Assembly (NCBI GenBank): GCA_964648765.1
Contig: CAZYLF010000001.1
Location: 357,797 to 421,796 of the forward strand
DNA from: an uncultured Candidatus Saccharibacteria bacterium
GTDB lineage: Bacteria > Patescibacteriota > Minisyncoccia > Phycocordibacterales > JACOZG01
DNA: 64,000 bases
Direction of reading: 5' to 3'
A model generated the notes under the pieces. That model ran no database searches, was not told the DNA's origin, and saw nothing but the letters and a program-made list of their open reading frames with translations. The position numbers and the translations under genes were made by a program. Numbering within the stretch: position 1 is the first letter of the stretch; each line of letters opens with the position of its first letter. Of this stretch, positions 9,975-64,000 are shown piece after piece.

Positions 9975-10688
9975 TTACTTCTTCTTTTTTGGTGCGTATG
10001 TCACAAGAGCCGGAAATCTTCCGCCACTTGTGCTTATGAGTCGGACGCGTGCGTCCTTCATAGGCGTATCTGCACCAATCCAGCAGTCGCTATTTTTGTT
10101 ATCCTTACAACTGCTGTTGTAGTTTGAACCAGCGGCGATTATCTTCACCTGCTTTCGCGGATCACCGTCTACTGGCCTAACACTAACATCCACGATACCT
10201 GGTATCGTGTTGATCTCGGTCAGAATCCGTGATGGTTCTGGCCCTACCTCGATCACAAACGATTTTGCATTTGGATCGTTCTCGGGTTTAGGGAGTTCAA
10301 TGTAACCTTGGGTTACTGGCTTTTGTGCACTGGCGCCCGCTGCATTCACCTGACGAATCAGGTCAATGTAACGGAGCACATCTGCTTGCCAGTAGTAACC
10401 AGCACCCACAATCAGCATTAGGAACACAAACCACGCCAACTTGTTCCCACCTTTCTTTTTTTCTGGCTTGGTTTCCTTAGTTTTTACCTCAGGCTTCTTG
10501 ATTTCAGGAACCTTTGCCTTGTCGGCATTTGCTACAGTGGAGTCGTCTTGCTTCTTTGCTCCCATCTCATCCTTCTTTCTACTTTTACTTCTGCTTCTTA
10601 GGATGATGGGTAGAGCAATGAAAGTGAGAGCCCCTCCAACTATGAGTAAGATTGGTACTGCCGCCCAAAAAAATTGGGTTGTAGTCAT
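9975..10688 (-). CDS. two-TM membrane protein with a Lys-rich linker and a C-terminal soluble domain. May be an NfeD-like partner of the upstream SPFH protein.
   Basis: 237 aa with two hydrophobic helices and a KKPEVKTKETKPEKKK linker. The start is translationally coupled to the SPFH stop (TAATG). SPFH genes commonly pair with NfeD-type membrane proteins, but no motif was confirmed. Confidence 0.4.
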   Translation of the reverse strand: MTTTQFFWAAVPILLIVGGALTFIALPIILRSRSKSRKKDEMGAKKQDDSTVANADKAKVPEIKKPEVKTKETKPEKKKGGNKLAWFVFLMLIVGAGYYWQADVLRYIDLIRQVNAAGASAQKPVTQGYIELPKPENDPNAKSFVIEVGPEPSRILTEINTIPGIVDVSVRPVDGDPRKQVKIIAAGSNYNSSCKDNKNSDCWIGADTPMKDARVRLISTSGGRFPALVTYAPKKKK

Positions 10689-11773
10689 TAGGGTGTTCCT
10701 TTCGTTTTGATTGGATTAACGGGCGGAAGATTAACTATGGTTGGGGAACCTGTCCCTCCAATGTTTAATACTTGCCCCTTAAATTCAGCCAACTTTGCTG
10801 TTGCTCTAGACTGCAGATAGTGGGGCATATTCTCACTACCTACTGCTGTTTTTTGTTTGTCCAAAACTTCGGCTTCCGCCCCACCAACTTCTCTGATTCC
10901 CTTTGCTTGGTACTTAGAGGTTTCGAACAGAGCCTCACCGTTCAAGGTAGCCAATTCCTTGGCCTTTTGAGCCTTAACGCTTTCGGCGTCGGAGCCAGCT
11001 GGGGTAGAGGAGACATAGTTATATGCGGCAACCCTGACTCCCGCTACTCTGATGAGTACATTTTCATACTCCTTAGTTACGGGGTCACGTGTGACGCTTT
11101 GGAATCTTCTGAGATACTCGGAGATTAACACTTGCTTGTCTTCACTGTTGAATGAAGTGTAATCTGGTATCTTTGGATTCTTGCAGCAGTTATCGATTGC
11201 ACCGTTTACTACGTTCACTGCTTTCAGGAACCACTTACCTTTTAGGGCAAAAACTGCCAACTCAGGATCAATGGCTTCAAAGGTGATCTCTCCCACTATG
11301 TCGACGGTGAAGCCACTTAGGAGTTCTACACCTTTAGTTTCAATTGGGTAGGTGAAAAGATGATACATTGAGTCTACCACTTCTGGTTCTCTCATTCGGA
11401 TTTTGTATTCTCCGGTATCAGTTTTTTTCTTTTCCCACTCTGCCCACTCAAATTTGTATTCGTGGATGGTATAAATTGGCCAAAAAAACGGACCATAAAT
11501 ACCAAACCAACCATACTTCCAGGGGTTGAGAATTTTCCTGAATCCAGAAGTATTGTCGTCAACAATACTCCTGTCCCCATCGATCGTTTTGTTTTTGACG
11601 TTGATTAGGATGTAGCGTAAGTCACCACCTGCGGTGACGAACTTGATCTCCCGCTCATCTACCAATGTGAAGATAATGTCATAATGTGCCAATGCGTATG
11701 CAGTCAAAGTAAGCCCAAGCACAAACACACCAACTGCCGATATCCCCGCGCTCACTGCCACCAAAATTTCCAT
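10688..11773 (-). CDS. SPFH / band-7 (stomatin-prohibitin-flotillin-HflK/C) domain membrane protein
   Basis: The start is at the internal ATG 11773 (MEILVAVSAG...) with SD AAAGGAGACTCAAA. N-terminal TM, then an SPFH-like core (VDIVGEITFEAIDPELAVF..., coiled-coil tail SVKAQKAKELATLNGEALFETSKYQAKG). Confidence 0.6.
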   Translation of the reverse strand: MEILVAVSAGISAVGVFVLGLTLTAYALAHYDIIFTLVDEREIKFVTAGGDLRYILINVKNKTIDGDRSIVDDNTSGFRKILNPWKYGWFGIYGPFFWPIYTIHEYKFEWAEWEKKKTDTGEYKIRMREPEVVDSMYHLFTYPIETKGVELLSGFTVDIVGEITFEAIDPELAVFALKGKWFLKAVNVVNGAIDNCCKNPKIPDYTSFNSEDKQVLISEYLRRFQSVTRDPVTKEYENVLIRVAGVRVAAYNYVSSTPAGSDAESVKAQKAKELATLNGEALFETSKYQAKGIREVGGAEAEVLDKQKTAVGSENMPHYLQSRATAKLAEFKGQVLNIGGTGSPTIVNLPPVNPIKTKGTP

Positions 11774-11843
11774 TTTGAGTCTCCTTTCCGCCCAAGGCGG
11801 AGGTAAATTCACTTATTAGGTTGTCAAACAACCACTGCTCGCG

Positions 11844-11871
11844 ATTATATCATACATTCGTAAAAAAGCAA
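11844..11871 (-). promoter_or_regulatory. sigma70-like promoter (-35 TTGCTT, 16-nt spacer, -10 TATAAT) carrying the shared ACTTGCTTTTTT element; drives the SPFH operon
   Basis: On the minus strand: cacaaaacTTGCTTttttacgaatgtatgaTATAATcgc. The same -35 block recurs at 13070..13098 and 13820..13847. Confidence 0.5.
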
Positions 11872-11902
11872 GTTTTGTGAGGGGTTAAAATATATAAGAA
11901 AA

Positions 11903-11931
11903 GACCCGCAAACGCTACGCGTTTGCGGGTC
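11903..11931 (-). terminator. rho-independent terminator (gacccgcaaacg/cgtttgcgggtc) after the 11959..12987 gene
   Basis: 12-bp stem. The minus orientation is followed by TTTTCTTATATATT. Confidence 0.65.
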
Positions 11932-11958
11932 CATATTTCTCCTTTTTCAAAAGAACAA

Positions 11959-12987
11959 TTACCGAAGTGGGCCAAACATCCGGACCTTGTCGGTGTCGCC
12001 AACCCCAGGCAGTGGGGCTCTAAGGTACGTGGTTCGCACAACCCCAGCATTGTCTGGATCAGTGTATTTACCTCCCCGGATTTGAATCACGTAGCACCCG
12101 TCAGGCGCTTTGACGCAATCCACATATCTTAGGAGGTTGAGGCCACCATACTCTCTCTCCACCAAAACATACGGCCACTTACCAACCGGACCTTCTGGGC
12201 TCTCGCGGTGGATGGATTCCGGTTCAACATCAATTGGTGGAGGTGAGTAGGATCTGTTATCACCACAGTTACCACTAGGGCAACGGTCGCGATGAAAGTT
12301 GTCGTACTCTTCCACACCTTTGTACATCATGTTGTTTTGTACGGGCGGTAACTCCTTGGTTACCACCACAGACTCAATCTGCTGGTTTGGAACGTTGGCG
12401 GCTGGTGTCGGAGCAGCAAGCTTGGCTGCTTCTAGCTCAGCTTCCAATTTTTTCCGATAATCCGCACCAGCATTTGAAGCTTCGTTGAACTTGGTCTGTT
12501 TCCACGCCTCGGTCTCATTGGTTTTGATGATTGCCCAGGTCACAGCAGCAGCTCCAATCACAAGCACAACAATCAGAACTGAATTACGGCTGAACCAAGA
12601 TAGGCCACTCTTCGGCTTCGTTTTTGCTGCTTTTTCAGCCTTCGCGATTTCGCTCAGCCGTTCCGCTTCCTTTTCAATGTAAGCTTGAACTTCCGTTTCT
12701 GTTATATTGGATCCTTCTGCGGGCTGAGCTTGCGCGGGTGGGGGATTGGCTGGCATTCGACACCCACCTTGGGTTGCAAGCTTTTCCAACGCTTTTTCCA
12801 TCCGATTGAATCCTGCAATCATTGCAGTTGATTCAGTTCGGTGTAAGGCTGCGTTGTCTTGCAGTTGGTTGAAGATCCTTTCGTACGGCGTTACCGTTCT
12901 TGCTGGTGCTGCAGCAGGCGCTGGTGTTTGAACAGGAACGGGCGCGCCCGTTCCATCTCCCGGGTCTCCATTTTGTCCGTCTGGCAT
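11959..12987 (-). CDS. hypothetical bitopic membrane protein (Pro/Ala-rich cytoplasmic N-terminus, one TM, C-terminal extracytoplasmic domain)
   Basis: 342 aa from a GC3-rich gene. The TM helix is VLIVVLVIGAAAVTWAII near residue 150. The C-terminal domain is ...WPYVLVEREYGGLNLLRYVDCVKAPDGCYVIQIRGGKYTDPDN.... No known motif recognised. Confidence 0.45.
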   Translation of the reverse strand: MPDGQNGDPGDGTGAPVPVQTPAPAAAPARTVTPYERIFNQLQDNAALHRTESTAMIAGFNRMEKALEKLATQGGCRMPANPPPAQAQPAEGSNITETEVQAYIEKEAERLSEIAKAEKAAKTKPKSGLSWFSRNSVLIVVLVIGAAAVTWAIIKTNETEAWKQTKFNEASNAGADYRKKLEAELEAAKLAAPTPAANVPNQQIESVVVTKELPPVQNNMMYKGVEEYDNFHRDRCPSGNCGDNRSYSPPPIDVEPESIHRESPEGPVGKWPYVLVEREYGGLNLLRYVDCVKAPDGCYVIQIRGGKYTDPDNAGVVRTTYLRAPLPGVGDTDKVRMFGPLR

Positions 12988-13069
12988 GATGTCTTCTCCT
13001 TATCTTTAGCTTTTGCCTCAATCTGAAACGATCAGAAGGGGCTCCACTAATTTTCAATGTCCTGGTCAT

Positions 13070-13098
13070 TTACTACCATATGATTATAAAAAAAGCAA
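13070..13098 (-). promoter_or_regulatory. promoter with shared -35 block (TTGCTT, 17-nt spacer, weak -10 TAGTAA) for the 11959..12987 gene
   Basis: On the minus strand: tccacatggacTTGCTTtttttataatcatatggTAGTAAatg. The CACA-N3-ACTTGCTTTTTT block is conserved with the promoters at 11844 and 13820. Confidence 0.4.
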
Positions 13099-13117
13099 GT
13101 CCATGTGGACGTAATAA

Positions 13118-13146
13118 AGGGGCCTCATAAATGAGACCCCTTTTTT
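13118..13146. terminator. terminator hairpin (aggggcctcat/atgagacccct plus T6) downstream of the lipoprotein gene
   Basis: 11-bp stem with one mismatch, followed by TTTTTT on the + strand. Lies between two minus-strand genes. Confidence 0.5.
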
Positions 13147-13155
13147 GGACGCTTA

Positions 13156-13752
13156 CTATCGTCCTCGTCCGCCTTTCCGACCTCCTCGGTCGTTGTTGGC
13201 TTGGCGATTAGATTCACCTCGCGCACGCCCACCCCCGCGCCCTGCATTTTCACTACGCTCAGGACGTGAGCCGTTGGCACTTTGCCTCGTGGGTGAGCTA
13301 CTCCTCACCGTGCGCCGTTCACCATGTTGCTCGATAGAAGAGCGACTGGCACGGACACTGCGAGGACCAGAGCCACGACTGTTGTTGTGCACATCAACGT
13401 CGACGTGAACCACGCGACCGCGACTTCCGTGACCGTGCACGTAGCCATGATCACGATACCACTCCCGGCGACCACACACATCGCGATAGTACCCCCACGC
13501 CACCACTGTGCCTGGGCACCAGGCGTCGTAGTATACATGCGTGACCGGATGGTACCAGCGGGACACGTAAGCGGGTCCACTAACTACCACTGACCCACTG
13601 ACCGCCACCGGCACACTGGGGGCAAAGCCCTCAGTGGTCTCGGTGACCACTTGCTGCCCTTGAGCATCGTACGACACTGTCCGCGTGTGTGTGGAGCAAC
13701 CGCTAGCCGCAAACAACAAACCAACCAAACCGATAATCGTGAAATTACGCAT
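13156..13752 (-). CDS. lipoprotein with an Arg/Gly-rich (RGG-like) disordered C-terminal tail
   Basis: The signal plus lipobox LFAASGC is followed by a Trp/Tyr/His-rich domain (WYHPVTHVYYDAWCPGTVVAWGYYRD). The last roughly 70 aa are RG/RS/GRG repeats (GRGGGRARGESNRQANNDRGGRKGGRGR). Confidence 0.45.
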   Translation of the reverse strand: MRNFTIIGLVGLLFAASGCSTHTRTVSYDAQGQQVVTETTEGFAPSVPVAVSGSVVVSGPAYVSRWYHPVTHVYYDAWCPGTVVAWGYYRDVCGRREWYRDHGYVHGHGSRGRVVHVDVDVHNNSRGSGPRSVRASRSSIEQHGERRTVRSSSPTRQSANGSRPERSENAGRGGGRARGESNRQANNDRGGRKGGRGR

Positions 13753-13819
13753 AGTAATTTCCTTTCATTTAAAGAACAAACATTCTTCTGATGAACCACT
13801 AGGCCCACCTTCTCTTACT

Positions 13820-13847
13820 ATTATATCATATATATATAAAAAAGCAA
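13820..13847 (-). promoter_or_regulatory. sigma70-like promoter (-35 TTGCTT, 16-nt spacer, -10 TATAAT) with shared ACTTGCTTTTTT block for the lipoprotein gene
   Basis: On the minus strand: atccacaggcacTTGCTTttttatatatatatgaTATAATagt. Confidence 0.5.
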
Positions 13848-13872
13848 GTGCCTGTGGATAACCCTAAATTTG

Positions 13873-13956
13873 TGCCGGGGAGAGGACTTGAACCTCCATG
13901 CCCTTGCGGGCGCCAGCTCCTAAGGCTGGTGCGTCTGCCAATTTCGCCACCCCGGC
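13873..13956 (-). tRNA. tRNA-Leu (anticodon UAG), long variable arm
   Basis: The reverse complement folds as a cloverleaf: acceptor GCCGGGG/CCCCGGC, anticodon loop CU-UAG-GA, 14-nt variable arm, T-loop TTCAAGT. No encoded CCA. Confidence 0.85.
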
Positions 13957-13964
13957 TTCCGTGA

Positions 13965-14037
13965 TCCGCCCGGTAGGAATCGAACCTACGACCGTACGCT
14001 TAAGAGGCGTCTGCTCTACCAACTGAGCTACGGGCGG
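13965..14037 (-). tRNA. tRNA-Lys (anticodon CUU)
   Basis: Acceptor CCGCCCG/CGGGCGG, D-arm GCTCAGTTGGTAGAGC, anticodon loop CT-CTT-AA, T-arm GTAGG-TTCGATT-CCTAC. Confidence 0.85.
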
Positions 14038-14060
14038 AAAAAAATTCTGCTTTCGCAGTG

Positions 14061-14142
14061 TGCCCGGGGTGGGAGTCGAACCCACATCCCTTTCGAGACA
14101 CGATTTTAAGTCGTGCGCGTATACCAATTCCGCCACCCGGGC
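14061..14142 (-). tRNA. tRNA-Leu (anticodon UAA), long variable arm
   Basis: Acceptor GCCCGGG/CCCGGGC, anticodon stem-loop CACGA-CTTAAAA-TCGTG, long variable arm, T-loop TTCGACT. Confidence 0.85.
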
Positions 14143-14146
14143 AATA

Positions 14147-14218
14147 AGGCCTAGGCCGGAATTGAACCGGCGCGTCGCGGTTTTGCAGACCGCTGCGTTA
14201 CCACTTCGCCACTAGGCC
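14147..14218 (-). tRNA. tRNA-Cys (anticodon GCA)
   Basis: Acceptor GGCCTAG/CTAGGCC, anticodon stem-loop GCGGT-CTGCAAA-ACCGC, T-arm GCCGG-TTCAATT-CCGGC. Sits 4 nt from tRNA-Leu(UAA). Confidence 0.85.
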
Positions 14219-32035: not shown

Positions 32036-33040
32036 CTAGCCCAAGGGCTCATAGTTCAATGGTAGAATGACGGTCTCCAAAACCGTTGATCGAGGTTCGA
32101 CTCCTCGTGGGCCCGCTTCGATCCACGTAATTCTCTTGTCGCGTTTGAACCAGGTCATCTGGCGTTTGGCGTATTGATAAATAGCGGTTTGGGATTTCTC
32201 GATCATTTCCTTTTTATCAATCTTGCCTTCAAGAAATTCCGCGACGTAAAAGTATTCTAAACCAAATTCTTTAATTCGTTTGAAGGAGATTTTCTGCTTC
32301 CGTAACTTTTTTACTTCTTCCACTAAACCTTGTTTAAACCATTGCGCCAGGCGCTTATTAATCTTCTTTCGTAAAATTTCATCCGGAACCTTAATGCCGA
32401 TTTGTAAAAAATGATACCGAGGACTCCCCTTAAGGATGCCCCAAGGGGAGTCCTCGGTTCCCATTAACTTCGGAACTTTTCCGAGCGCGGTCGCAATTTC
32501 TATCGCGCGCATAAGGCGTCGGGGATTTTGCGCATCTATATTTTTAGCCCGGACTGGATCGAGAACTTTTAACTTTTCAAATAATTGATTCACACCTAAC
32601 TTTTCTAATTCCTTGCGTAATTTTAAATTTGGTTTAACTTCTGGCAAAATAATCCCATCCACAATTGATTGAATGTAAAATCCCGTGCCACCGCAAATTA
32701 TCGGTAACTTGTCGCGCTTAATTATTTCTTCAATTTTTTTATTTGCCAGCTTTTGAAAGTCGGAAACCGAGAATGTTTTCTTCGGGCTCACCACATCAAT
32801 TAAGTGGTGGGGGATTCCTTTCATCTCTTTTTTACTCAACTTGCCGCTGCCAATATCTAGTCCTTTGTAAACTTGTCGCGAGTCGGCGGAGATTACCTCA
32901 CCATGAAACCGCTTGGCGAGCTTTATCGCCAAATCACTCTTCCCACTCGCCGTGGGTCCCACAATCACTAAAATTTTTTGTTTAGACACTGCTGTTTTCT
33001 GAAACAAGCCCTTCACACTGACTTCTAACTTGCTGGTCAT
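32036..33040 (-). CDS. miaA: tRNA dimethylallyltransferase; C-terminal 25 codons read antisense through tRNA-Trp; start possibly GTG near 32989
   Basis: P-loop ILVIVGPTASGKSDLAIKLAK and the DSRQVYKGLDIGSGK signature. The in-frame tail ...GVEPRSTVLETVILPLNYEPLG is antisense tRNA. Confidence 0.85.
   Translation of the reverse strand: MTSKLEVSVKGLFQKTAVSKQKILVIVGPTASGKSDLAIKLAKRFHGEVISADSRQVYKGLDIGSGKLSKKEMKGIPHHLIDVVSPKKTFSVSDFQKLANKKIEEIIKRDKLPIICGGTGFYIQSIVDGIILPEVKPNLKLRKELEKLGVNQLFEKLKVLDPVRAKNIDAQNPRRLMRAIEIATALGKVPKLMGTEDSPWGILKGSPRYHFLQIGIKVPDEILRKKINKRLAQWFKQGLVEEVKKLRKQKISFKRIKEFGLEYFYVAEFLEGKIDKKEMIEKSQTAIYQYAKRQMTWFKRDKRITWIEAGPRGVEPRSTVLETVILPLNYEPLG
32045..32115 (+). tRNA. tRNA-Trp (anticodon CCA), embedded antisense within the 3' end of miaA
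   Basis: Acceptor GGGCTCA/TGGGCCC, anticodon stem-loop ACGGT-CTCCAAA-ACCGT, T-arm CGAGG-TTCGACT-CCTCG. Confidence 0.85.
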
Positions 33041-33698
33041 TGATCTTTTTACAAATTTTACTGTTTTTCCACTTTCTACTCATATTTAGATAACAGTAAT
33101 CACTATGGTATTCATCAGTTTTCTCGCAATATTGAATATCTCCTGCTTTCACTGCTCTGTCTGCGACGCAATAATAATTCTCATAAAAATTACATGTTAA
33201 AAAGGATGATATTAGGAACATAGCTAGTAAAATAAAAATTACTACGAAAAAGCTATAAATGAAACGAAAAATCTTTTTATTATTTCTAAATTTGTATAGC
33301 AGAAGTGTTGGGATAGTAAAAAATAATAGAGCAATTATTAGCCCACAGCCTATAACTATAACTATAAGTGGGGTAAGAAACAGAAAAGCCCAGATTGGCG
33401 GATGGCCACCAGGGTAAATAGAAGAAAGAACTAATGAGTAAATAAAGACAAATATTGTCGTTAGCAACATAATAATAAGAGTGTTTTTGAGGATCGATGG
33501 TCGAGTGTGTAAATCTTCTTTATTTTTGTGAAGCGTGTAAAGAAAAATAGCAGTTAAATATATACTAGAAATTGTGGTCGTGATTACATAAAATTCCCAA
33601 CTTGGTTCCAAGAATGGGTCTATTATGGGATTGAAAAACATACCCAAAGACATAAGGAATAAAAAACAAACAATTCCAGCTTTCCAGTTGATTTTCAT
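32982..33698 (-). CDS. polytopic membrane protein with a Cys-rich C-terminal tail
   Basis: 238 aa with about six hydrophobic helices. The tail is CNFYENYYCVADRAVKAGDIQYCEKTDEYHSDYCYLNMSRKWKNSKICKKINDQQVRSQCEGL, with 7 Cys. Overlaps the annotated miaA start. Confidence 0.5.
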   Translation of the reverse strand: MKINWKAGIVCFLFLMSLGMFFNPIIDPFLEPSWEFYVITTTISSIYLTAIFLYTLHKNKEDLHTRPSILKNTLIIMLLTTIFVFIYSLVLSSIYPGGHPPIWAFLFLTPLIVIVIGCGLIIALLFFTIPTLLLYKFRNNKKIFRFIYSFFVVIFILLAMFLISSFLTCNFYENYYCVADRAVKAGDIQYCEKTDEYHSDYCYLNMSRKWKNSKICKKINDQQVRSQCEGLVSENSSV

Positions 33699-57771: not shown

Positions 57772-57844
57772 GGGCCGTTAGCTCATTTGGTAGAGCACCA
57801 CATTTGCAATGTGGGGGTGATCGGTTCGAATCCGATACGGTCCA
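57772..57844 (+). tRNA. tRNA-Ala (anticodon UGC)
   Basis: GGGCCGT acceptor with the G3:U70 Ala identity pair. Anticodon stem-loop CCACA-TTTGCAA-TGTGG. T-arm ATCGG-TTCGAAT-CCGAT. Confidence 0.9.
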
Positions 57845-57856
57845 CTCGATTCACTC

Positions 57857-57957
57857 TTGACAAAATATGATAGTATGATACGTTAGCATAGGATTAACTT
57901 GAGCTTTGTGGCTCAAGGAAAGTACATTTCAAAACTAAACAAAGCAAGGAGAAAATT
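57857..57957 (+). promoter_or_regulatory. recurrent promoter/operator plus leader module, copy A (TTGACA-N4-ATGATAGTATGATA ... AGGATTAACTTGAGCTTTGTGGCTCAAG hairpin ... AAGGAG)
   Basis: Shares the TTGACA + ATnATAGTATGmTA core with 17727 and 58764. Shares a 25-nt leader block (57891..57915) with 58797..58822. Confidence 0.45.
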
Positions 57958-58692
57958 ATGGCAACAGATGGCCCCACTCCGACTCCATGTAACCCCGACA
58001 TTTTTAAGAAAGGCAGAGGTGTTTGTGTTGTCCGTGGTAGTTCCAACGCTGTAGAGCGTTGGGTACGGTCCGTCGCTAAGAAAGCTAATGCTCAAGTTGA
58101 TTGGCATTACAGTGGAGGAATGGCGAGTGTCCTTCATCTTGGTGACGATGAAAGTCGTCAGCGAGTTTTGAACGCTATCCACGAGCTCAAGGGCAAACTC
58201 GACGGACACATTATTAGCGTTGACGGCCCCGCTCTTTACAGGGATGGAGTCGAAGGTTCAAATGTTACCGCTGCGGTCGTTCGCAAAGACAATGGGGAAA
58301 TTGTCCTTGTTGATCCGGAAGTCATTGCAGTAATTGGTGCCGTTGGTAAGTACAACTGCAAAAATACTCTTGAGATTAACTCTGATCGCGTTGATCATTT
58401 CAAGCAACGATTGACGGAGCGCGGTATGACTGCCGACGAGGCGGTAATCGTACTTTTAAACGTTGACGATGTTCACGGTGGTCCACTTGCTGACGTACTG
58501 ATGCCCGGTCACGACTGGCAGGAAATACGTGACAGGGGTGAAGTTCCTTTCGCCAGAGGACTTGCCGTGCGGAATGGCATTCAGCAAGCACTTGGTATCT
58601 TCGATGAGGATGCTGCGATGAAGCTCAAGGGTATGACTGAGGTGGCTGTTGTGGTTGTAGACCATGGAGTCGCCGAGGTGTTTGCGGCCTAG
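57958..58692 (+). CDS. hypothetical acidic soluble protein (244 aa, GC3-rich)
   Basis: ATG with SD AAGGAG. No TM or recognisable catalytic motif. Residues ...VLLNVDDVHGGPLADVLMPGHDWQEIRD.... Has its own terminator. Confidence 0.45.
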   Translation: MATDGPTPTPCNPDIFKKGRGVCVVRGSSNAVERWVRSVAKKANAQVDWHYSGGMASVLHLGDDESRQRVLNAIHELKGKLDGHIISVDGPALYRDGVEGSNVTAAVVRKDNGEIVLVDPEVIAVIGAVGKYNCKNTLEINSDRVDHFKQRLTERGMTADEAVIVLLNVDDVHGGPLADVLMPGHDWQEIRDRGEVPFARGLAVRNGIQQALGIFDEDAAMKLKGMTEVAVVVVDHGVAEVFAA

Positions 58693-58722
58693 ATGTTAAG
58701 TCCTTACAATTTTGTACACACA

Positions 58723-58759
58723 AGCGCACGACCCTCGGGGACGTGCGCTTTTTTCTTTT
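58723..58759 (+). terminator. rho-independent terminator (agcgcacg ... cgtgcgct plus T6CT4)
   Basis: 8-bp outer stem with an inner ccc/ggg extension, followed by TTTTTTCTTTT. Confidence 0.75.
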
Positions 58760-58763
58760 ACTA

Positions 58764-58865
58764 TTGACAAAGTATTATAGTATGCTACGATAGGGCAGGA
58801 TTAACTTGAGCTTTGTGGCTCTAAAAAGTACATTTTCATTTGGAACTCGAAAAAAGGAGACTTGC
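58764..58865 (+). promoter_or_regulatory. recurrent promoter/operator plus leader module, copy B (TTGACA-N4-ATTATAGTATGCTA ... AGGATTAACTTGAGCTTTGTGGCTC ... AAAGGAGA)
   Basis: Its 14-mer is identical to 17738..17751. The leader block is identical to copy A over about 25 nt. Confidence 0.45.
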
Positions 58866-59249
58866 ATGAACATTTCTCAAAAGATTGCCGAACTACACAG
58901 GCGCTTGGGAAAACACGTTAAGGTGTGGCATCACAAGAAGCTACTTGGCTTTATCCCAATTTTTTGGCCAGGAGGCTGGTTGTCAATTGATGAAGAAGAG
59001 AATAGTTGGTCTGTGATGCTTACTTCAAATAAACACACGCATCACCCATTCCTAGGTTCGGCTCTCGGAGCTGATTTTCAGAAAAGTGACGGTGAGCGTA
59101 AGATTGGGCCAGGTAATCTAACGGGAGCGTGGTTCACAATTCTTTCTATGTGGCCAGCAAAAAATGAGGATGAGGCTGTAAGAATTTTTAATACAGTGGC
59201 GTCAAAAATTAATGCAGCCTACGGCCATCGCATTCAACGCAACACTTAG
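58866..59249 (+). CDS. hypothetical small protein (127 aa, His/Trp-rich, GC3-rich)
   Basis: Start is the internal ATG at 58866, read as MNISQKIAELHRRLGKH, with SD AAAGGAGA 5 nt upstream. The track N-terminal extension overlaps the leader module. Confidence 0.4.
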   Translation: MNISQKIAELHRRLGKHVKVWHHKKLLGFIPIFWPGGWLSIDEEENSWSVMLTSNKHTHHPFLGSALGADFQKSDGERKIGPGNLTGAWFTILSMWPAKNEDEAVRIFNTVASKINAAYGHRIQRNT

Positions 59250-59277
59250 GTCTGAGAAAAGTCACAAAAACCGCTAG

Positions 59278-59312
59278 AGGTGTTTACTCACTAGCGGTTT
59301 TTCTTTGCCTTA
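59278..59312 (+). terminator. rho-independent terminator (aaccgctag ... ctagcggtt plus TTTTCTTT)
   Basis: 9-10 bp stem with a 13-nt loop and a U-tract. Confidence 0.7.
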
Positions 59313-59341
59313 TAGACTGATATAACCCCCTCGACTTACTT

Positions 59342-60403
59342 ATGGTACAATCGACTCATATGGAAACAAATAATCAGAAGGTGATTAGGATTTCGAAAAA
59401 GAAGTTGATTATTACACTAATTGTGTTGGTGATTGGGGCTTATATAGTTTTAAATTCACTTGGCACAGCAAGGATGAAGAGTGGTGTTGATTACGCGGAG
59501 AATGCCATGATGCCGAGTGGGGGTGGATCGTATGGTGGTGCCAATATTCCGGTATCAAGTGGGGTGATGCCAGATTATTACCCCTATCCATACCCCGAGC
59601 AGGACGACGTTACCGACACCAGAGAATTTTTGAAAACCTCGTATTCCGGAAATTTGAAGACGCGCGATGTGTCTGAAACAGCTGATGATGTTAAAAATAT
59701 TGTTCGCGATGTGGAAGGTCGCCTTGATAACTTTAATACTTCGGAAAAGTATAGTTACATTACTTTTGTGGTACCCAAAAGTCGTTTTGATGAATTTAAA
59801 AATCGGGTAGGGGATTTGGTGGGGGCCAAACTTTATGTTGAGAGCATTTCATCCCAAAATCTTTTAAACCAAAAGCAATCAATTGAAGGTCGCACTGAGA
59901 CAGCCGAGGAGGCTCTGGTTACTCTTGAAAAGCGTAAAAAGGATCTCGCTACCGCTCACGTGGCCACGCTTAACAATATTAAGAGTGAATTAACTGCGAC
60001 ACAAAGCAAATTAAATATTACAGAATCACAAATTCTTTTAACTGATGATCCGGGAGAGTCTGCGGCGCTTAGGAGCCAACTGGCCGTTTTACTTCAAACT
60101 CAAGCTGATTTGCTAGGGCGTCAAAGTGTTGAAAATCAAAATTTTGCTAATCAAAACAAGTGGATTGATCAGAGCATCGCTCAAACCAAAGCTCAATTAA
60201 CTAATCTTGATAAAGAAGATACCAAGTTTGCCAATAATATTGAAACGGTAAATGGCACGGTGAATATCCAATGGATCAGTGTTTGGGATTTAATTAAATT
60301 ATATTCGCCAATTAATCCAATTCTAATCATTATCATTGTTCTCCTCCTCGCCCGCTGGATCCTGGTCCGCAAAGGCTATCTCTCCCGAATCGAGTTTGTG
60401 TAG
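59342..60403 (+). CDS. membrane-anchored coiled-coil protein (N-terminal TM, long Gln/Leu-rich coiled coil, C-terminal TM; DUF4349-like architecture)
   Basis: 353 aa (or start at ATG 59360, 8 nt after a TACAAT box). Helices LIITLIVLVIGAYIVL and ILIIIIVLLLARWILV flank a roughly 250 aa coiled coil. Confidence 0.45.
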   Translation: MVQSTHMETNNQKVIRISKKKLIITLIVLVIGAYIVLNSLGTARMKSGVDYAENAMMPSGGGSYGGANIPVSSGVMPDYYPYPYPEQDDVTDTREFLKTSYSGNLKTRDVSETADDVKNIVRDVEGRLDNFNTSEKYSYITFVVPKSRFDEFKNRVGDLVGAKLYVESISSQNLLNQKQSIEGRTETAEEALVTLEKRKKDLATAHVATLNNIKSELTATQSKLNITESQILLTDDPGESAALRSQLAVLLQTQADLLGRQSVENQNFANQNKWIDQSIAQTKAQLTNLDKEDTKFANNIETVNGTVNIQWISVWDLIKLYSPINPILIIIIVLLLARWILVRKGYLSRIEFV

Positions 60404-60531
60404 AAGTTTGTAAATACTTATCAGACAGTCACACATTCAATACCTTGACATTCAATCTTGTTTATGATAGGGTAATTTTGGAGTCCAGTGTGCACTGGGC
60501 AATTAAATTTTTCCATAACCAGGAGAATCAA

Positions 60532-60792
60532 ATGCCTAAGGTCAAGAAAAGTGTGGAACATGAGGCACAAGCAAAGCTTGATGCTGTGATCAAGCAGTAT
60601 GGCCCACAGATCAAAACCATCACCAAAGAGATTGGCCAGAACTTTCGATGTTTTGGAGGAGGTAGCGTCAACATGGACAACCCAATCTCAAGAGCACTTG
60701 TGAATGATCCACTCCAATTTGCAGCAGCTGTGGACGTTGAACAGGTGGTCACTTTTGTCATTTTTCGTTTATTCGAGAAGACGCACATTTAG
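60532..60792 (+). CDS. hypothetical small protein (86 aa)
   Basis: Start is the internal ATG at 60532, read as MPKVKKSVEHE, with SD AGGAGAA. Upstream promoter TTGACATTCAATcttgtttatgaTAGGGT and a leader hairpin ccagtgtgcactgg. Confidence 0.4.
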   Translation: MPKVKKSVEHEAQAKLDAVIKQYGPQIKTITKEIGQNFRCFGGGSVNMDNPISRALVNDPLQFAAAVDVEQVVTFVIFRLFEKTHI

Positions 60793-60811
60793 ATCTTAGC
60801 GCAGACAATCG

Positions 60812-60850
60812 AGGCGCCAGATAGATATACCTATCTGGCGCCTTTTCATT
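60812..60850 (+). terminator. rho-independent terminator (aggcgccagatag ATATA cctatctggcgcct plus TTTTCATTTTC)
   Basis: 13-14 bp stem with a U-tract, 30 nt before tRNA-Val. Confidence 0.75.
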
Positions 60851-60883
60851 TTCAATAAAATACGGTTTACTTAATGAGCTAAA

Positions 60884-60958
60884 GGCACCCTTAGCTCAGC
60901 TGGTTAGAGCGTACGATTCACATTCGTAAGGCCTCAGGTTCGATTCCTGAAGGGTGCA
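60884..60958 (+). tRNA. tRNA-Val (anticodon CAC); its 3' half is the likely integration target of the downstream element
   Basis: Acceptor GCACCCT/AGGGTGC. D-arm GCTCAGCTGGTTAGAGC. Anticodon stem-loop TACGA-TTCACAT-TCGTA. T-arm TCAGG-TTCGATT-CCTGA. Confidence 0.9.
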
Positions 60959-62428
60959 CCGTTGGGGAATTTCCACGTCCTGGTGGACCCGCTGAAACGG
61001 TTTCGCGGCTTCAATTAAGAGTTTTTTGTCCGTGAGCAAAAGGTTCGATCCGACTGTTTGAGCGATCAGCCGCTTGAGTTCCGTCGTGCCGTGCTGGAAC
61101 CAGAATACGGCCCTATCGTTGAATGATTTGAGATTTTGAAGGGGTTCGATCCTATCCCCCTGATCCTCCGGTGCCCTCGCCAAAAGTTGTTCCAACCGCA
61201 GCCGCTCCTGCTGCAGGCCCTGCCGCTTAGTTGCAAATTCAGCATCATCGATGAGATCCCGCAAGCGCAGGCTGGTGAGGTTGTCCAACTGACGCACCGT
61301 GTCCGCAAGAATCTGATGCCGGTTATCCATTTCACGCTTGGCCTGTTCAATCCGTTCGGATTCGGTCTGCTTCACCATGCGCAGGGCCCAGTCATGCAGA
61401 GAAGCGGGGAGGATGATCGACTCCAGGAAGGCGAGAAACTGCCGTTCCAATTCGCGGCCTTCAATCGAGGGCTGGCGGCAATAGCAGCGCGCATGGCGAT
61501 GGGTGCAATGATAGTAAACATAACGGTGCCCATGGCGATTGGTCTTATGTTCGGCTGTAATGGCCAGTCCGCAGGCTCCGCATCGTATAAGGCCCCTAAA
61601 TGGGAAATCCTGGTGCTTGGGGCGCGGAGGGGTGGGTCGTCCCAACAAGGCCTGCACGCGCTCAAACTCATCAATCGACACCATCGCCGGATGACGGCCC
61701 ACATGCGTCTGTCCTTCCCAACGGATCAATCCAGCATAAAAGGGATTGGAAATCAGTTTATAGATGGCGCTCAAGGCCATCGCATTGCCCCCAACTCGCT
61801 TCTTTTGAGCGGTGCGGAGCCCCCATTCGTCGCGTGCCTGCCGGTGGAGCTGGCTGGGGCTGGCTACACCGGTGAGCATCCCATCCCACAGCTTGCGAAC
61901 CACATCAAATCGATCGGGGTCGGCGACGATGGTTTTGGCTGTCGAGTCTATGCGATAGCCGATCGGCACATTTCCCGGTCGCCACCCCTTGAGCACCTTC
62001 GTGCGATTGCCACGTTTAACATTCTCGCTCAAGTTGTCCACATAATATTTGGAATAGCCGAAGATGATCGACAGCATGAACTTGCCTTGCGAATTGTTTT
62101 CAAAACTGAAATTGGAAAAGCGGAGGTCTTTGAGGACTTGCTGGTCGAGCATATAGATAATCTTGCCACCATCGATGGAATTGCGGGCCAGCCGGTCGGG
62201 GTGCCAAGCAATAATGCCATCGGCCTCACGACGTTCCAAGCGTTTGAGCATCGCATCAAAAACGACCCTGCCCGGCGTTTTGGCACTGTAGGCCTCCTCG
62301 AAGATTTCCACGATTTGATCGTTGTCGTTCCGCAGCGCGCGCTGTAGTTCCATGCGCTGCGATTCAATCGACAGCACCTGGCGATCCTCTGATTCTGTGG
62401 ACTTGCGACAGTAGGCGAAGTACCTCAT
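60896..62428 (-). CDS. large serine recombinase (integrase) of the integrated element
   Basis: 510 aa, GC-rich. Resolvase-type N-domain with catalytic Ser ([24 protein letters not shown]). Recombinase domain, Cys ribbon ([12 protein letters not shown]...[13 protein letters not shown]) and coiled coil. The last 21 codons are antisense tRNA-Val (...[17 protein letters not shown]). Confidence 0.85.
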
Positions 62429-63332
62429 TGAAAGGGATGATTAGGCTTCCATCGACGCCACCTGGCTATTTGCGTCTGTGGCAGTGCCTTTGACGCAATA
62501 GCACGCTGTTGATGAGCAGGAATTATTCGATGCGAGCGCGCCAGCATAGAGCGCCGTTGCCTTTGTGTCAAAGCGCGACGGTTGATAAATCGGATATCTC
62601 GATGCCGCTGTCTATACCGCCTGCGTTTGTTTGGTGACTTCCGCATGACGGTAGATTATGAGCCATGGACCGGTGGATCCCAGGATGCCAACTTTGTCTG
62701 CGCCGACAAGTTGCCTCGCCTTCATATGTTGCAAGTCCGAATTCAGAGGTCTGGTAGACGAGCATAACAAAAAGGGGGACCGCATCGCGGCCCCTCTGAA
62801 AGAGAACTCATCGGATTTAGCTACCGAGCTGTCAGCTCGCCGACGCGATTCCGAGCCAACCATGGAGGGAGCCGAATACCTCGAACTGGCAAATAACGTT
62901 CAACGGCTTTACGGTTTGGCGAATGACATGAAAAACGTGAATTAATGCAAATCACGACCTCGAACCGTGCGCTGATCGGAAAAAATGTTGTGGTTAAGCT
63001 CTCGAAACCGTTTGCGACCCTCGCCGAACACGCCGAATCAACAGAATGTGACCCTTATCGAGCCAGACCTCGAACTTTGGAAATAATCGCACGCTGGTTA
63101 CGCGACACACCCAAGGAGTCTCGGAAGCCTTTCGACCTCCTGCTCAATGCGAGCGCTGCGGAACGTGCATCAATTGCTGATTCGCAGCGTTCGTCCGCGC
63201 CGCCGGCATCGCTGGCTGCTTTCATGTGCCGCTTCGCACTGCCAGGAACCCGGCCTAGCCCAGATACTCACGCACCTCGCCGAATCTCTTTCGCCATACG
63301 GGCCGAAGTACCAATCGCTTGGCGCGGGGACA

Positions 63333-63677
63333 TCACGAGCGAAACGTGAGGTCAGATTTTGAAATGTCAACATCAAATATTCGGTGTGCTCCTCGTACCG
63401 GGATGGGAGCGATGGCTCCTATATGCGCCAGAACCAATGCGAAGGCCCCCTCATAAAACTTGCAGCGTGCTTCGGCCTCGTCAGCTTTGTTCATCGGCCG
63501 GCAATCAATTAGCTCTGCGACCGCAAGCGCAAATCCCGCTGGAGCAATCGGTGGGCTCTTTGAGGAAACGATGAGAAGCGGGCCGCGGTACGTTGTTGAC
63601 CACGTGCGGGTCTCAATCGTCTTCTGACCCGAGGCGACAAGATTTGCCCAAGGCTGCTTTAGTGAGATTGCCTTCAT
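63333..63677 (-). CDS. ASCH (PUA-like) domain protein, element cargo
   Basis: 114 aa. MKAISLKQPWANLVASGQKTIETRTW matches the ASCH N-terminal beta-barrel signature. ATGA overlap with an upstream partial ORF. Confidence 0.55.
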   Translation of the reverse strand: MKAISLKQPWANLVASGQKTIETRTWSTTYRGPLLIVSSKSPPIAPAGFALAVAELIDCRPMNKADEAEARCKFYEGAFALVLAHIGAIAPIPVRGAHRIFDVDISKSDLTFRS

Positions 63678-64000
63678 GTTGTCCGCTTAACCTGCCCAGT
63701 TGGCAATCCTAGGGTTTGCAGAGTTTGCCTCGTTGACTTGTCCTGAACAGTCTGAAGAAACGACCCAGCCCAATGTTTGATCATTCCAATCCAAGGAGCA
63801 TATGAATCAGTTTCATGGCCAAGTTGCCGCGCATCCGAGGGTGAAAAGTGGCCATGCGATAGCACGATCCCGGACATTTCGGCAACACCCGCCCCCTCGA
63901 CCCGGCGAGCAAATCGAACGAGCGCGCGAAAGTCGGCTTGCAGCGCGTTAGTAAGCGACGAAAGCGATCGAAAGGCGTCAAACGCATAATCGCGAGCTCG
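63674..64000 (-). CDS. hypothetical protein, N-terminal part outside the window (element cargo, coupled to the ASCH gene)
   Basis: An open reverse-strand frame runs from the window edge to the stop at 63674 (...GIVLSHGHFSPSDARQLGHETDSYAPWIGMIKHW...). Its stop overlaps the ASCH start. Confidence 0.3.
   Translation of the reverse strand, partial: RARDYAFDAFRSLSSLTNALQADFRALVRFARRVEGAGVAEMSGIVLSHGHFSPSDARQLGHETDSYAPWIGMIKHWAGSFLQTVQDKSTRQTLQTLGLPTGQVKRTT

What the first reader, a model, noticed from the sequence alone, without database searches (positions are those of the whole stretch)
57845..60883. tRNA-Ala to tRNA-Val interval is a 3-kb islet of independently expressed unknown genes
Directly after the tRNA-Ala 3' end come four GC3-rich ORFs. 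They are a 244-aa acidic protein, a 127-aa His/Trp-rich protein, a DUF4349-like coiled-coil membrane protein and an 86-aa protein. Each has its own promoter, and most have their own strong terminator. Two share the recurrent operator and leader module. No homolog is recognisable by eye. The interval is bounded by two tRNAs and followed by an integrase-bearing element. This is the layout of a tRNA-associated hypervariable accessory locus where defence or host-interaction genes accumulate.
Basis: partly seen in the sequence, partly recalled or inferred. Interest (0 to 1): 0.65.

Follow-up and report, generated by a model that had tools for sequence, protein, structure and literature searches.

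The report
tRNA-flanked islet of stand-alone unknown genes
Between two tRNA genes of a tiny-genome (CPR/Patescibacteria-type) bacterium lie four separately transcribed genes of unknown function; the set differs in every relative examined, nothing marks it as a defence locus, and the first gene belongs to an unusually conserved, uncharacterised family also found on contigs classed as huge phages.

Summary
tRNA-Ala (57772-57845) and tRNA-Val (60885-60960) bracket four + strand ORFs of 244, 127, 353 and 86 aa. ORF3 is DUF4349. Three ORFs have strong terminators. ORF1 and ORF2 share a duplicated promoter and leader.

Two details fail. The ORFs are not GC3-rich (0.39-0.48 against 0.42 +/- 0.07 for the host). 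The shared module occurs only twice in the window.

Four relatives keep the upstream block UvrC-HK-RR-Ddl-tRNA-Ala, in whole or in part, and each has different genes after the tRNA. One of them also keeps tRNA-Val. So this is a variable islet. However, three contigs from the same population are identical across it. There are no att remnants and no integrase inside, composition is host-like, and no defence family matches.

ORF1 is not fast-evolving cargo. Its family has 565 homologues. Synonymous sites are saturated, omega is at most 0.1, and it is 71% identical where IF-2 is 48%. Its C-terminal domain is confidently modelled and matches nothing in PDB, BFVD or Pfam. The family also occurs on large contigs classed as huge phages. 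It forms a self-contained unit with conserved 5' and 3' UTR elements, often next to tRNAs.

ORF2 belongs to a small divergent family and ORF4 is an orphan. Function remains unknown. Interest is moderate.

The parts
57772..57845 (+). tRNA-Ala(tgc), left boundary. It ends the conserved block UvrC-HK-RR-Ddl-(PCD)-tRNA-Ala.
   Evidence: ARAGORN and Rfam at 66.8 bits. The block is conserved in L044, L046 and L049, and partly in L048.
57850..57957 (+). ORF1 promoter and about 70 nt of 5' leader. -35 TTGACA at 57857-62; extended -10 TGATACGTT at 57876-84; hairpin at 57898-57917; family-specific box AGTACATTTCAAAAC at 57921-35; Shine-Dalgarno AAGGAG.
   Evidence: Sequence and repeat D1. The box GYACATTYCMAAAC is found only upstream of ORF1-family genes in the window and 63 loci. 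The leader hairpin alone is not significantly stable (z -1.5).
57958..58692 (+). ORF1, 244 aa, cytoplasmic, two domains. Residues 1-90 form a ferredoxin-like N-terminal domain. Residues about 104-244 form a C-terminal domain with the invariant motif LMPGHxWQ..RD.GE.PFARGLA.
   Evidence: 565 homologues at 54-81% identity. AF2 pLDDT is 85.6 for the full protein and 93.6 with pTM 0.83 for the C-domain. No significant match in PDB or BFVD and none in Pfam, NCBIfam, PHROGs or PADLOC. omega is at most 0.1.
58722..58758 (+). ORF1 terminator hairpin GCGCACGACCCTCGGGGACGTGCGC plus a T-run. Its sequence is conserved across the family together with about 30 nt of 3' UTR upstream of it.
   Evidence: -19.4 kcal/mol, z -5.3. 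The motif occurs only behind ORF1-family genes in 68 loci. RNAalifold predicts 10 pairs, 4 of them with compensatory changes.
58757..58865 (+). ORF2 promoter and leader, a local duplicate of the ORF1 module (86% over 65 nt, continuing through the AGTACATTT box).
   Evidence: ORF2-family genes elsewhere (L059-L061) lack this leader.
58866..59249 (+). ORF2, 127 aa, basic (pI 9.75), His/Trp-rich. It belongs to a small, fast-diverging family of proteins of about 125 aa.
   Evidence: The word-indexed search found no homologue. The exhaustive HMMER search found 85 relatives at 27-50% identity (alignment A3). The homologues are stand-alone genes, and the one in L060 starts 75 nt after a tRNA-Tyr.
59266..59300 (+). 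ORF2 intrinsic terminator.
   Evidence: -16.5 kcal/mol, z -4.3.
59342..60403 (+). ORF3, 353 aa, a DUF4349 protein with N-terminal and C-terminal hydrophobic anchors and a coiled-coil middle. It has no terminator of its own and no clear promoter or Shine-Dalgarno sequence.
   Evidence: Pfam PF14257 at 6.8e-9 and 35.8 bits, above the 27.7 cut-off. Hydrophobic segments at 14-45 and 316-348. No terminator. PMC10924467 tested one DUF4349 protein as a candidate exported tail-anchored protein.
60446..60531 (+). ORF4 promoter (TTGACA, 17 nt, TGATAGGGT) and leader with a small hairpin at 60483-60500 and Shine-Dalgarno AGGAG.
   Evidence: Sequence and hairpin.
60532..60792 (+). ORF4, 86 aa, an orphan.
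   Evidence: Only itself among 5.8 billion protein clusters. No family match.
60811..60854 (+). ORF4 terminator, a 14-bp stem.
   Evidence: -26.5 kcal/mol, z -8.5.
60885..60960 (+). tRNA-Val(cac), right boundary and likely attachment site of the neighbouring element.
   Evidence: Logan contigs L001 and L002 both stop at 60920, inside the anticodon. The recombinase ORF overlaps 60896-60960.
60896..62428 (-). Large serine recombinase at the start of a GC-richer element. It is adjacent to the islet, not part of it.
   Evidence: Pfam Resolvase, Recombinase and Zn_ribbon_recom. PHROG 95 integrase at 2e-73. GC 0.55 and GC3 0.65.

Best explanation
The tRNA-Ala to tRNA-Val interval is a small flexible islet in the chromosome of a CPR/Patescibacteria-type bacterium. 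It is made of autonomous transcription units, not an operon and not an integrase-delivered island.

Shown: three units (ORF1, ORF2, ORF4) each have a near-consensus extended -10 promoter, a Shine-Dalgarno sequence and a strong intrinsic terminator. ORF3 has no terminator of its own.

ORF1 is the anchor. It is an ancient, strongly constrained two-domain cytoplasmic protein. Its whole unit is conserved across lineages: promoter, 5' leader with the AGTACATT box, coding sequence, 3' UTR and terminator hairpin. The unit is found at different places in different genomes, preferentially beside tRNA genes.

Its promoter and leader have been copied in front of the next gene, ORF2. This most likely puts the two genes under the same control (inferred). 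The same copying onto an unrelated downstream gene is seen independently in L067.

ORF3 is a DUF4349 protein anchored in the envelope. ORF4 is a lineage-specific orphan.

Inferred and weak: the products are accessory cell-physiology or envelope proteins rather than a defence system. ORF1 probably binds a conserved cellular partner, possibly in RNA or translation, and its conserved UTR elements mediate its regulation.
For: Anatomy.

Variable content behind a conserved frame.

ORF1 family:
- 565 homologues with length conserved at 244-247 aa. Short forms of about 148 aa are widespread in CPR.
- DNA homology to unrelated contigs runs from about 57873 to 58761 only.
- The 5' box and the 3' hairpin are specific to the family.
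- dS is saturated, dN is 0.12-0.23 and omega is at most 0.1.
- ORF1 is 71% identical to its L067 homologue, where IF-2 is 48%, DUF4446 46% and the aminotransferase 43%. It is 76% identical in L003, where Ddl is 31%.
- L067 shares the block DUF4446-IF-2-RbfA-tRNA(Cys, Leu, Lys, Leu) with the window. There ORF1 follows that tRNA array, while the window has a different gene at that position.
- tRNA proximity: 10 of 49 loci, P = 5e-4.
- Leader duplication onto the downstream neighbour in L067.

Host-like composition.
No defence or phage family for ORF1-4.
ORF2 family is real but divergent.
ORF3 is DUF4349.
Against: - Only four relatives with the conserved frame were found. They are distant (Ddl 54-70%), so the turnover could be ordinary decay of synteny rather than a hotspot.
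- The three contigs from the same population are identical.
- L003/L072 (tRNA-Ala(ggc), tRNA-Ser, ORF1, Ddl) and L070 (a PCD gene 4 kb away) hint at an old, partly retained neighbourhood of Ddl, tRNA-Ala and ORF1. That argues for vertical residence with rearrangement rather than mobility.
- The leader hairpin is not significantly stable (z -1.5 and -0.5), and covariation was not tested on enough leader sequences.
- No function is demonstrated for any of the four proteins.
- A few ORF1 homologues do sit beside defence genes: Shedu SduA in L069, a type I restriction-modification system in L007 and Cas3 in L055.
Confidence: 0.6

Rival explanations
1. This is a defence or host-interaction hotspot. 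The four genes are anti-phage or symbiosis cargo that accumulates beside tRNA integration sites.
For: - The content varies among relatives.
- An integrase element sits next door at tRNA-Val.
- The closest ORF1 homologue (81%) lies directly after an HTH gene and a Shedu SduA gene.
- L007 has type I restriction-modification genes right downstream and a serine recombinase nearby.
- The L055 homologue abuts Cas3.
- Among the 138 nearest neighbours, the defence families listed in the output have one or two matching members each.
- ORF3 is an envelope protein, which could matter for an epibiont.
Against: - ORF1-4 have no PADLOC hit even at E up to 1.
- ORF1 has omega of at most 0.1 with saturated dS, and is more conserved than IF-2. 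That is unlike arms-race proteins.
- Most neighbours of the homologues are housekeeping genes and no partner recurs.
- Composition is host-like and there are no att repeats.
Confidence: 0.15
2. This is the decayed remnant of a mobile element that integrated at tRNA-Ala. The four genes would be surviving cargo (morons) of an old prophage or integrative element that has lost its integrase and att sites.
For: - Each gene is moron-like, with its own promoter and terminator.
- The ORF1 C-domain occurs in 9 IMG/VR contigs of 34-608 kb and in GenBank 'uncultured phage' LR756500.1, 462 kb.
- In L067 a repeat of the tRNA-Leu 3' end, about 20 nt long, lies about 180 nt downstream of that tRNA and just before the ORF1 cassette.
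- Serine recombinases lie within 5 kb of several homologues: L007, L026, L029 and L038.
Against: - No repeat of the tRNA-Ala 3' end longer than 10 nt occurs anywhere in 57846-64000.
- GC3 and codon scores are host-like, whereas the true element at tRNA-Val stands out clearly.
- ORF1 divergence is ancient.
- None of the four proteins hits a PHROG at a meaningful E-value.
Confidence: 0.15
3. ORF1 is a core-like RNA or translation-associated factor placed near tRNA genes for functional or expression reasons. On this view the 'islet' is only the usual clustering of unknown genes in CPR genomes.
For: - Conservation exceeds that of IF-2.
- The promoter and Shine-Dalgarno sequence are strong, and both UTRs are conserved, as in autoregulated ribosomal-protein genes.
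- ORF1-family genes are enriched near tRNAs.
- In L067 the gene lies among IF-2, RbfA, four tRNAs and ArgRS.
- The huge-phage copies sit between two class II aaRS-like genes (L053), and next to PNK-phosphatase and YqeY/GatB-like genes (L051).
Against: - The family was found in only 41 of 185,579 species genomes by the pattern scan. That is a lower bound, but it is far from universal in Patescibacteria.
- It is absent from the 20-kb contigs of the closest relatives.
- The other phage contexts are unrelated to translation.
- The fold resembles no known RNA-binding or translation protein.
Confidence: 0.1

Closest known systems
Flexible genomic islets next to tRNA genes (tRNA-linked genomic islands)
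   Same: It is bounded by tRNA genes, the content differs among relatives behind a conserved frame, the genes are of unknown function, and a real integrase element sits at the neighbouring tRNA-Val.
   Different: There is no integrase, no att direct repeats and no compositional deviation inside the interval. It is identical within the sampled population. Its main gene is ancient and strongly constrained rather than recently acquired.
Phage 'morons' (autonomous promoter-ORF-terminator units inserted between genes)
   Same: ORF1, ORF2 and ORF4 are each a complete monocistronic unit. The ORF1 unit is conserved as a block, with homology ending at the promoter and the terminator, and relatives occur on contigs classed as huge phages.
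   Different: The interval is not inside a prophage. dS is saturated and omega is at most 0.1, so this is not recent cargo. The UTR sequences themselves are conserved, which is not a known property of morons.
Pfam DUF4349 (PF14257), for ORF3
   Same: The match is above the gathering threshold. ORF3 has an N-terminal anchor and a C-terminal transmembrane tail, the same layout as the one DUF4349 protein that PMC10924467 picked as a tail-anchored candidate.
   Different: Only profile positions 8-138 of 213 are matched. There is no twin-arginine motif and no lipobox. The function of the family is unknown.
Autoregulatory leaders of ribosomal-protein and other abundant-protein genes
   Same: A highly conserved protein is encoded with a conserved, family-specific 5' leader element, and here also a 3' element. 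A neighbouring gene carries the same leader.
   Different: No Rfam family matches. No binding has been shown. The structure of the leader hairpin is weakly supported.

Membership tests
Integrase-mediated tRNA-linked genomic island | Integrase or recombinase gene inside the island, next to the tRNA | tested here: not met
   None of ORF1-4 has a recombinase domain. The only recombinase (60896-62428) lies beyond tRNA-Val.
Integrase-mediated tRNA-linked genomic island | Direct repeat of the tRNA 3' end (attL/attR) at the far border | tested here: not met
   blastn-short with the tRNA-Ala 3' end found no match longer than 10 nt in 57846-64000.
Integrase-mediated tRNA-linked genomic island | Composition or codon usage that deviates from the host | tested here: not met
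   GC3 is 0.39-0.48 against 0.42 +/- 0.07 for the host. Codon scores are within the host range. The tRNA-Val element deviates clearly.
Integrase-mediated tRNA-linked genomic island | Presence or content that varies among relatives with conserved flanks | tested here: met
   L044, L046, L048 and L049 keep all or part of UvrC-HK-RR-Ddl-tRNA-Ala but have unrelated genes downstream. L044 also keeps tRNA-Val. The relatives are distant (Ddl 54-70%).
Defence island or known anti-phage system | Proteins that match known or candidate defence families | tested here: not met
   PADLOC found no family for ORF1-4 at E up to 1.
Defence island or known anti-phage system | Homologues recurrently embedded among defence genes | tested here: inconclusive
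   Among the 138 nearest neighbours of ORF1-family genes, each defence family listed in the output has one or two matching members (for example SduA 1, type I methyltransferase 1, type I specificity subunit 2, mad2 and mad5 2, PbeA 2). Most neighbours are housekeeping genes. No background rate was computed.
Pfam DUF4349 (ORF3) | Profile match above the curated gathering score | tested here: met
   35.8 bits against 27.7, E = 6.8e-9, residues 102-231.
Integron gene-cassette array | attC-type repeats between promoterless cassettes, plus an IntI integrase | tested here: not met
   No repeat family flanks the ORFs apart from the ORF1/ORF2 promoter duplication. The cassettes carry their own promoters, and there is no tyrosine integrase.
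Known cis-regulatory RNA (Rfam) for the shared leader | Covariance-model match | tested here: not met
   Only the tRNAs reach the gathering score. At E up to 5 there is nothing on the leader.
Large serine recombinase (adjacent element) | Resolvase catalytic domain, Recombinase domain and zinc ribbon | tested here: met
   PF00239 at 2.4e-21, PF07508 at 7e-6 and PF13408 at 3e-11. PHROG 95 at 2e-73.

The most novel reading that the evidence does not exclude
ORF1 would define an undescribed protein family that is ancient, shared by CPR bacteria and huge phages, and has a C-terminal fold with no detectable solved counterpart. It would always be encoded as a self-contained unit whose 5' box (AGTACATTYC.AAAC) and 3' hairpin (GCGCACGACC...GGTACG.CGC) are kept by selection. 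These elements would form a post-transcriptional or autoregulatory circuit that can be extended to neighbouring genes by copying the promoter and leader, as in window ORF2 and the 228-aa gene of L067. The protein would act on a conserved cellular machine, possibly one related to tRNA or translation.
Probability: 0.3. Interest if true: 0.6.

Novelty: new member of a known kind. Interest (0 to 1): 0.4.

Why it matters
The islet itself is an ordinary kind of feature: a small variable patch next to tRNA genes. Its value lies in what it exposes.

ORF1 belongs to a protein family with hundreds of members in Patescibacteria and on large contigs classed as huge phages. It is more conserved than translation factor IF-2. 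Its C-terminal domain is confidently modelled and matches nothing in Pfam, NCBIfam or PADLOC, and has no significant match in PDB or BFVD. It also carries conserved untranslated elements on both sides of the gene.

CPR bacteria have very small genomes, and much of their conserved gene content is unexplained. A gene kept this tightly is a good candidate for experimental study. The repeated copying of its promoter and leader onto neighbouring genes gives a concrete, testable case of how small regulons might form in these genomes.

Tried and rejected
- Pfam, PHROGs, PADLOC and NCBIfam on ORF1, ORF2 and ORF4 gave nothing.
- Pfam on 32 diverse C-domain members gave nothing.
- PDB sequence-profile searches gave nothing significant.
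- Foldseek of the full ORF1 model against PDB gave only generic ferredoxin-like and BMC-like matches to the N-domain, at E of 0.008 or worse. I treat this as fold class only.
- Foldseek of the C-domain gave a best E of 0.97 in PDB and 0.32 in BFVD.
- The search for att remnants of tRNA-Ala or tRNA-Val was negative.
- The search for further copies of the promoter and leader module in the window was negative.
- An ORF2-family scan of viral contigs was impossible because the alignment is too divergent.
- The idea that the conserved C-terminal '-AA' of ORF1 and of some ORF2 relatives is an SsrA-like degron was dropped. In ORF1 it is part of a confidently modelled terminal beta-strand.
- A weak PRTase-like hint (XGPRT, E = 0.43) was rejected as not significant.
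- A recent horizontal sweep as the cause of ORF1's high identity was rejected, because synonymous sites are saturated.
- Literature searches for sequence motifs of the family found nothing.
- The similarity of the 3' hairpin to the tRNA-Leu anticodon arm (GCGCACGACT) was judged to be chance.

Full report
**1. What is in the sequence**

ARAGORN and Rfam place tRNA-Ala(tgc) at 57772-57845 and tRNA-Val(cac) at 60885-60960.
- ORF1, 57958-58692, 244 aa
- ORF2, 58866-59249, 127 aa from the ATG
- ORF3, 59342-60403, 353 aa
- ORF4, 60532-60792, 86 aa

ORF1 is acidic (pI 5.5). ORF2 is basic and rich in His and Trp (6.3% and 4.7%). ORF3 has hydrophobic segments at both ends and matches Pfam DUF4349 above the gathering score.

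ORF1, ORF2 and ORF4 are each preceded by TTGACA, 16-17 nt, then an extended -10 (TGnTAnnnT) and a Shine-Dalgarno sequence. Each is followed by a strong intrinsic terminator: -19.4, -16.5 and -26.5 kcal/mol, with z scores of -5.3, -4.3 and -8.5. ORF3 has no terminator and no obvious promoter or Shine-Dalgarno sequence.

ORF1 and ORF2 share a promoter and leader duplication, 86% identical over 65 nt with a 24-nt identical core.

Two details of the finding fail. The ORFs are not GC3-rich: 0.46, 0.41, 0.39 and 0.48, against 0.42 +/- 0.07 for 35 other genes of the window. The module is not recurrent: there are only two copies in 64 kb.

**2. The neighbourhood**

Upstream are UvrC, a histidine kinase, a response regulator, Ddl and pterin-4a-carbinolamine dehydratase.

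Downstream, a large serine recombinase (60896-62428, minus strand) overlaps the 3' half of tRNA-Val. From there GC jumps from about 0.42 to about 0.55 and codon usage deviates. Two independent Logan contigs are 100% identical to the window and both stop at 60920, inside the anticodon. This fits an element junction there. The four ORFs lie on the 5' side of tRNA-Val, so they are outside that element.

**3. Is the interval variable?**

A metagenome scan with Ddl recovered relatives that keep UvrC-HK-RR-Ddl-tRNA-Ala, in whole or in part (L044, L046, L048, L049; Ddl 54-70%). None has a homologue of ORF1-4, and each has something different after tRNA-Ala:
- L044 has a 245-aa membrane protein and a 186-aa protein, then tRNA-Val(cac) and tRNA-Pro. 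The two-tRNA frame is kept with different, shorter cargo.
- L048, the closest relative, has a 169-aa unknown gene followed by a long open frame that I read by eye as FemAB-like; this was not checked with a tool.
- L046 and L049 have other genes.

So content turnover behind a conserved frame is real. The relatives are distant, however, and within the sampled population the interval is invariant.

No repeat of the tRNA-Ala 3' end occurs downstream. There is no integrase inside, and composition is host-like. Integrase-mediated acquisition is therefore not supported.

**4. ORF1**

ORF1 has 565 database homologues at 54-81% identity with length conserved at 244-247 aa. The named ones are Azambacteria, Wildermuthbacteria and Paceibacterota.

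A genome scan found 41 loci. Many encode only the C-terminal domain, as proteins of about 148 aa.

The C-domain also occurs in nine IMG/VR contigs of 34-608 kb with GC of 0.24-0.64, and in GenBank 'uncultured phage' LR756500.1, 462 kb. I did not verify that these contigs are viral.

AF2 gives pLDDT 85.6 for the full protein, with a ferredoxin-like N-domain. For the C-domain it gives pLDDT 93.6 and pTM 0.83. Foldseek finds nothing significant for the C-domain in PDB or BFVD. Pfam, NCBIfam, PHROGs, PADLOC and PDB sequence profiles are all negative.

The invariant core is ...NVDD..G...LMPGHxWQ..RD.GE.PFARGLA....

**5. ORF1 is ancient and constrained, and is conserved as a unit**

Against nine long-form homologues, dS is saturated (1.4 to infinity), dN is 0.12-0.23 and omega is at most 0.1.

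In the same genome pairs ORF1 is far more conserved than housekeeping genes. It is 71% identical in L067, where IF-2 is 48%, DUF4446 46% and the aminotransferase 43%. It is 76% identical in L003, where Ddl is 31%.

Nucleotide homology to unrelated contigs begins in the promoter and leader (about 57873) and ends just after the terminator (about 58761).

The 5' box GYACATTYCMAAAC, the 3' UTR and the hairpin GCGCACGACC..GGTACG.CGC occur only at ORF1-family genes in about 650 kb of fetched loci. The hairpin shows a few compensatory changes. Because synonymous sites are saturated, I infer that these untranslated elements are kept by selection. Rfam has no match for them.

**6. Position and neighbours of ORF1-family genes**

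No partner gene recurs among the 138 nearest neighbours. Each defence family listed by PADLOC has only one or two matching members, including Shedu SduA next to the closest homologue in L069 and type I restriction-modification genes in L007.

A tRNA lies within 700 nt in 10 of 49 loci, against 5.9% expected (P = 5e-4).

L067 shares with the window the block DUF4446-IF-2-RbfA-tRNA(Cys, Leu, Lys, Leu). In L067 the ORF1 cassette follows that array. The window has a GC-rich 198-aa lipoprotein-like gene at that position, and its ORF1 sits behind tRNA-Ala instead.

In L067 the ORF1 promoter and leader is also duplicated in front of the next gene, an unrelated 228-aa ORF. This is the same architecture as ORF1/ORF2 in the window.

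Against pure mobility, L003/L072 show tRNA-Ala(ggc), tRNA-Ser, ORF1 and Ddl in a row, which hints at an old shared neighbourhood.

**7. ORF2, ORF3 and ORF4**

ORF2 has no close homologue, but the exhaustive search found 85 relatives of about 125 aa at 27-50% identity. The homologues examined are stand-alone genes without the ORF1-type leader, and one starts 75 nt after a tRNA-Tyr.

ORF3 is a DUF4349 protein with two anchors. The one paper in the library that deals with this family picked a DUF4349 protein, with an N-terminal signal peptide and a C-terminal tail, as a candidate Tat-dependent tail-anchored protein and tested it (PMC10924467).

ORF4 is an orphan but has a complete promoter, Shine-Dalgarno sequence and terminator.

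**8. Conclusion**

This is a small flexible islet bounded by tRNAs and built of autonomous units, but nothing marks it as a defence locus or as an integrase-delivered island.

Its main gene is the reverse of hypervariable cargo. It belongs to an old, tightly constrained, uncharacterised family with conserved UTR elements, found in CPR bacteria and on contigs classed as huge phages.

Function is not established. My best inference, held weakly, is that ORF1 is an abundant cytoplasmic protein acting on a conserved cellular partner, with regulation through its UTR elements that is extended to ORF2 by the promoter and leader duplication.

Interest is moderate at 0.4. The kind of feature is known, but the ORF1 family deserves follow-up.

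Noticed in passing
window 60885-62428; L001 and L002 ends: The serine-recombinase ORF runs 65 nt into the 3' half of tRNA-Val. Both independent Logan contigs break at 60920, in the middle of the anticodon. This suggests an integration junction in the anticodon loop, with the 3' half of the tRNA supplied by the element. Compared with the tRNA-Val of relative L044, the only differences are in the T-arm (one compensatory pair) and at the 3' end.
   Followed up: partly
window 9975-14218 (minus strand): After the array tRNA-Cys, Leu, Lys, Leu comes another run of unknown genes without Pfam matches. The first is a 198-aa lipoprotein-like ORF (13156-13752) with GC 0.60. It and the following 342-aa ORF each have a promoter-like sequence, and a hairpin with a T-run follows the 198-aa ORF. 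ORFs of 374 and 237 aa follow. In L067 the syntenic position holds the ORF1-family cassette.
   Followed up: partly
window 32982-33698 (minus strand): A 238-aa ORF directly downstream of tRNA-Leu and tRNA-Arg has the lowest GC of the window (0.32, GC3 0.30) and no Pfam match. MiaA follows it. This is another atypical gene next to a tRNA.
   Followed up: no
L067 7673-7693 and 7849-7871: The last 20 nt or so of tRNA-Leu(tag) are repeated about 180 nt downstream, just before the ORF1-family cassette. This looks like an att-like scar of an earlier integration at that tRNA.
   Followed up: no
L007 5006, 5388, 5883 and 6824; L014 732: A repeat of about 35 nt, ATGGTTCCAACATCGTACCACGCAGCCAGCAA, occurs four times between small genes around the ORF1 homologue of L007. 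It occurs once right after the ORF1-family terminator in the unrelated contig L014. It is absent from the window and its nature is unknown.
   Followed up: partly
L069 184-1685: The closest ORF1 homologue (81% identical) lies immediately downstream of an HTH gene and a Shedu-type SduA gene (PADLOC SduA at 7.9e-148).
   Followed up: partly
L051, L053, L055 (IMG/VR contigs of 392-608 kb): In contigs classed as huge phages, the C-domain homologue sits between two class II aaRS-like genes (L053). In L051 it lies beside PNK-phosphatase, NADAR, APS-kinase-like and YqeY-like genes. In L055 it lies between an FtsH-like protease and Cas3.
   Followed up: partly
alignment A3 (ORF2 family) and ORF1 family C-termini: Several ORF2-family members and most ORF1-family members end in '-AA' or '-xA'. 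In ORF1 this is part of the last beta-strand, so I did not read it as a degradation tag.
   Followed up: partly
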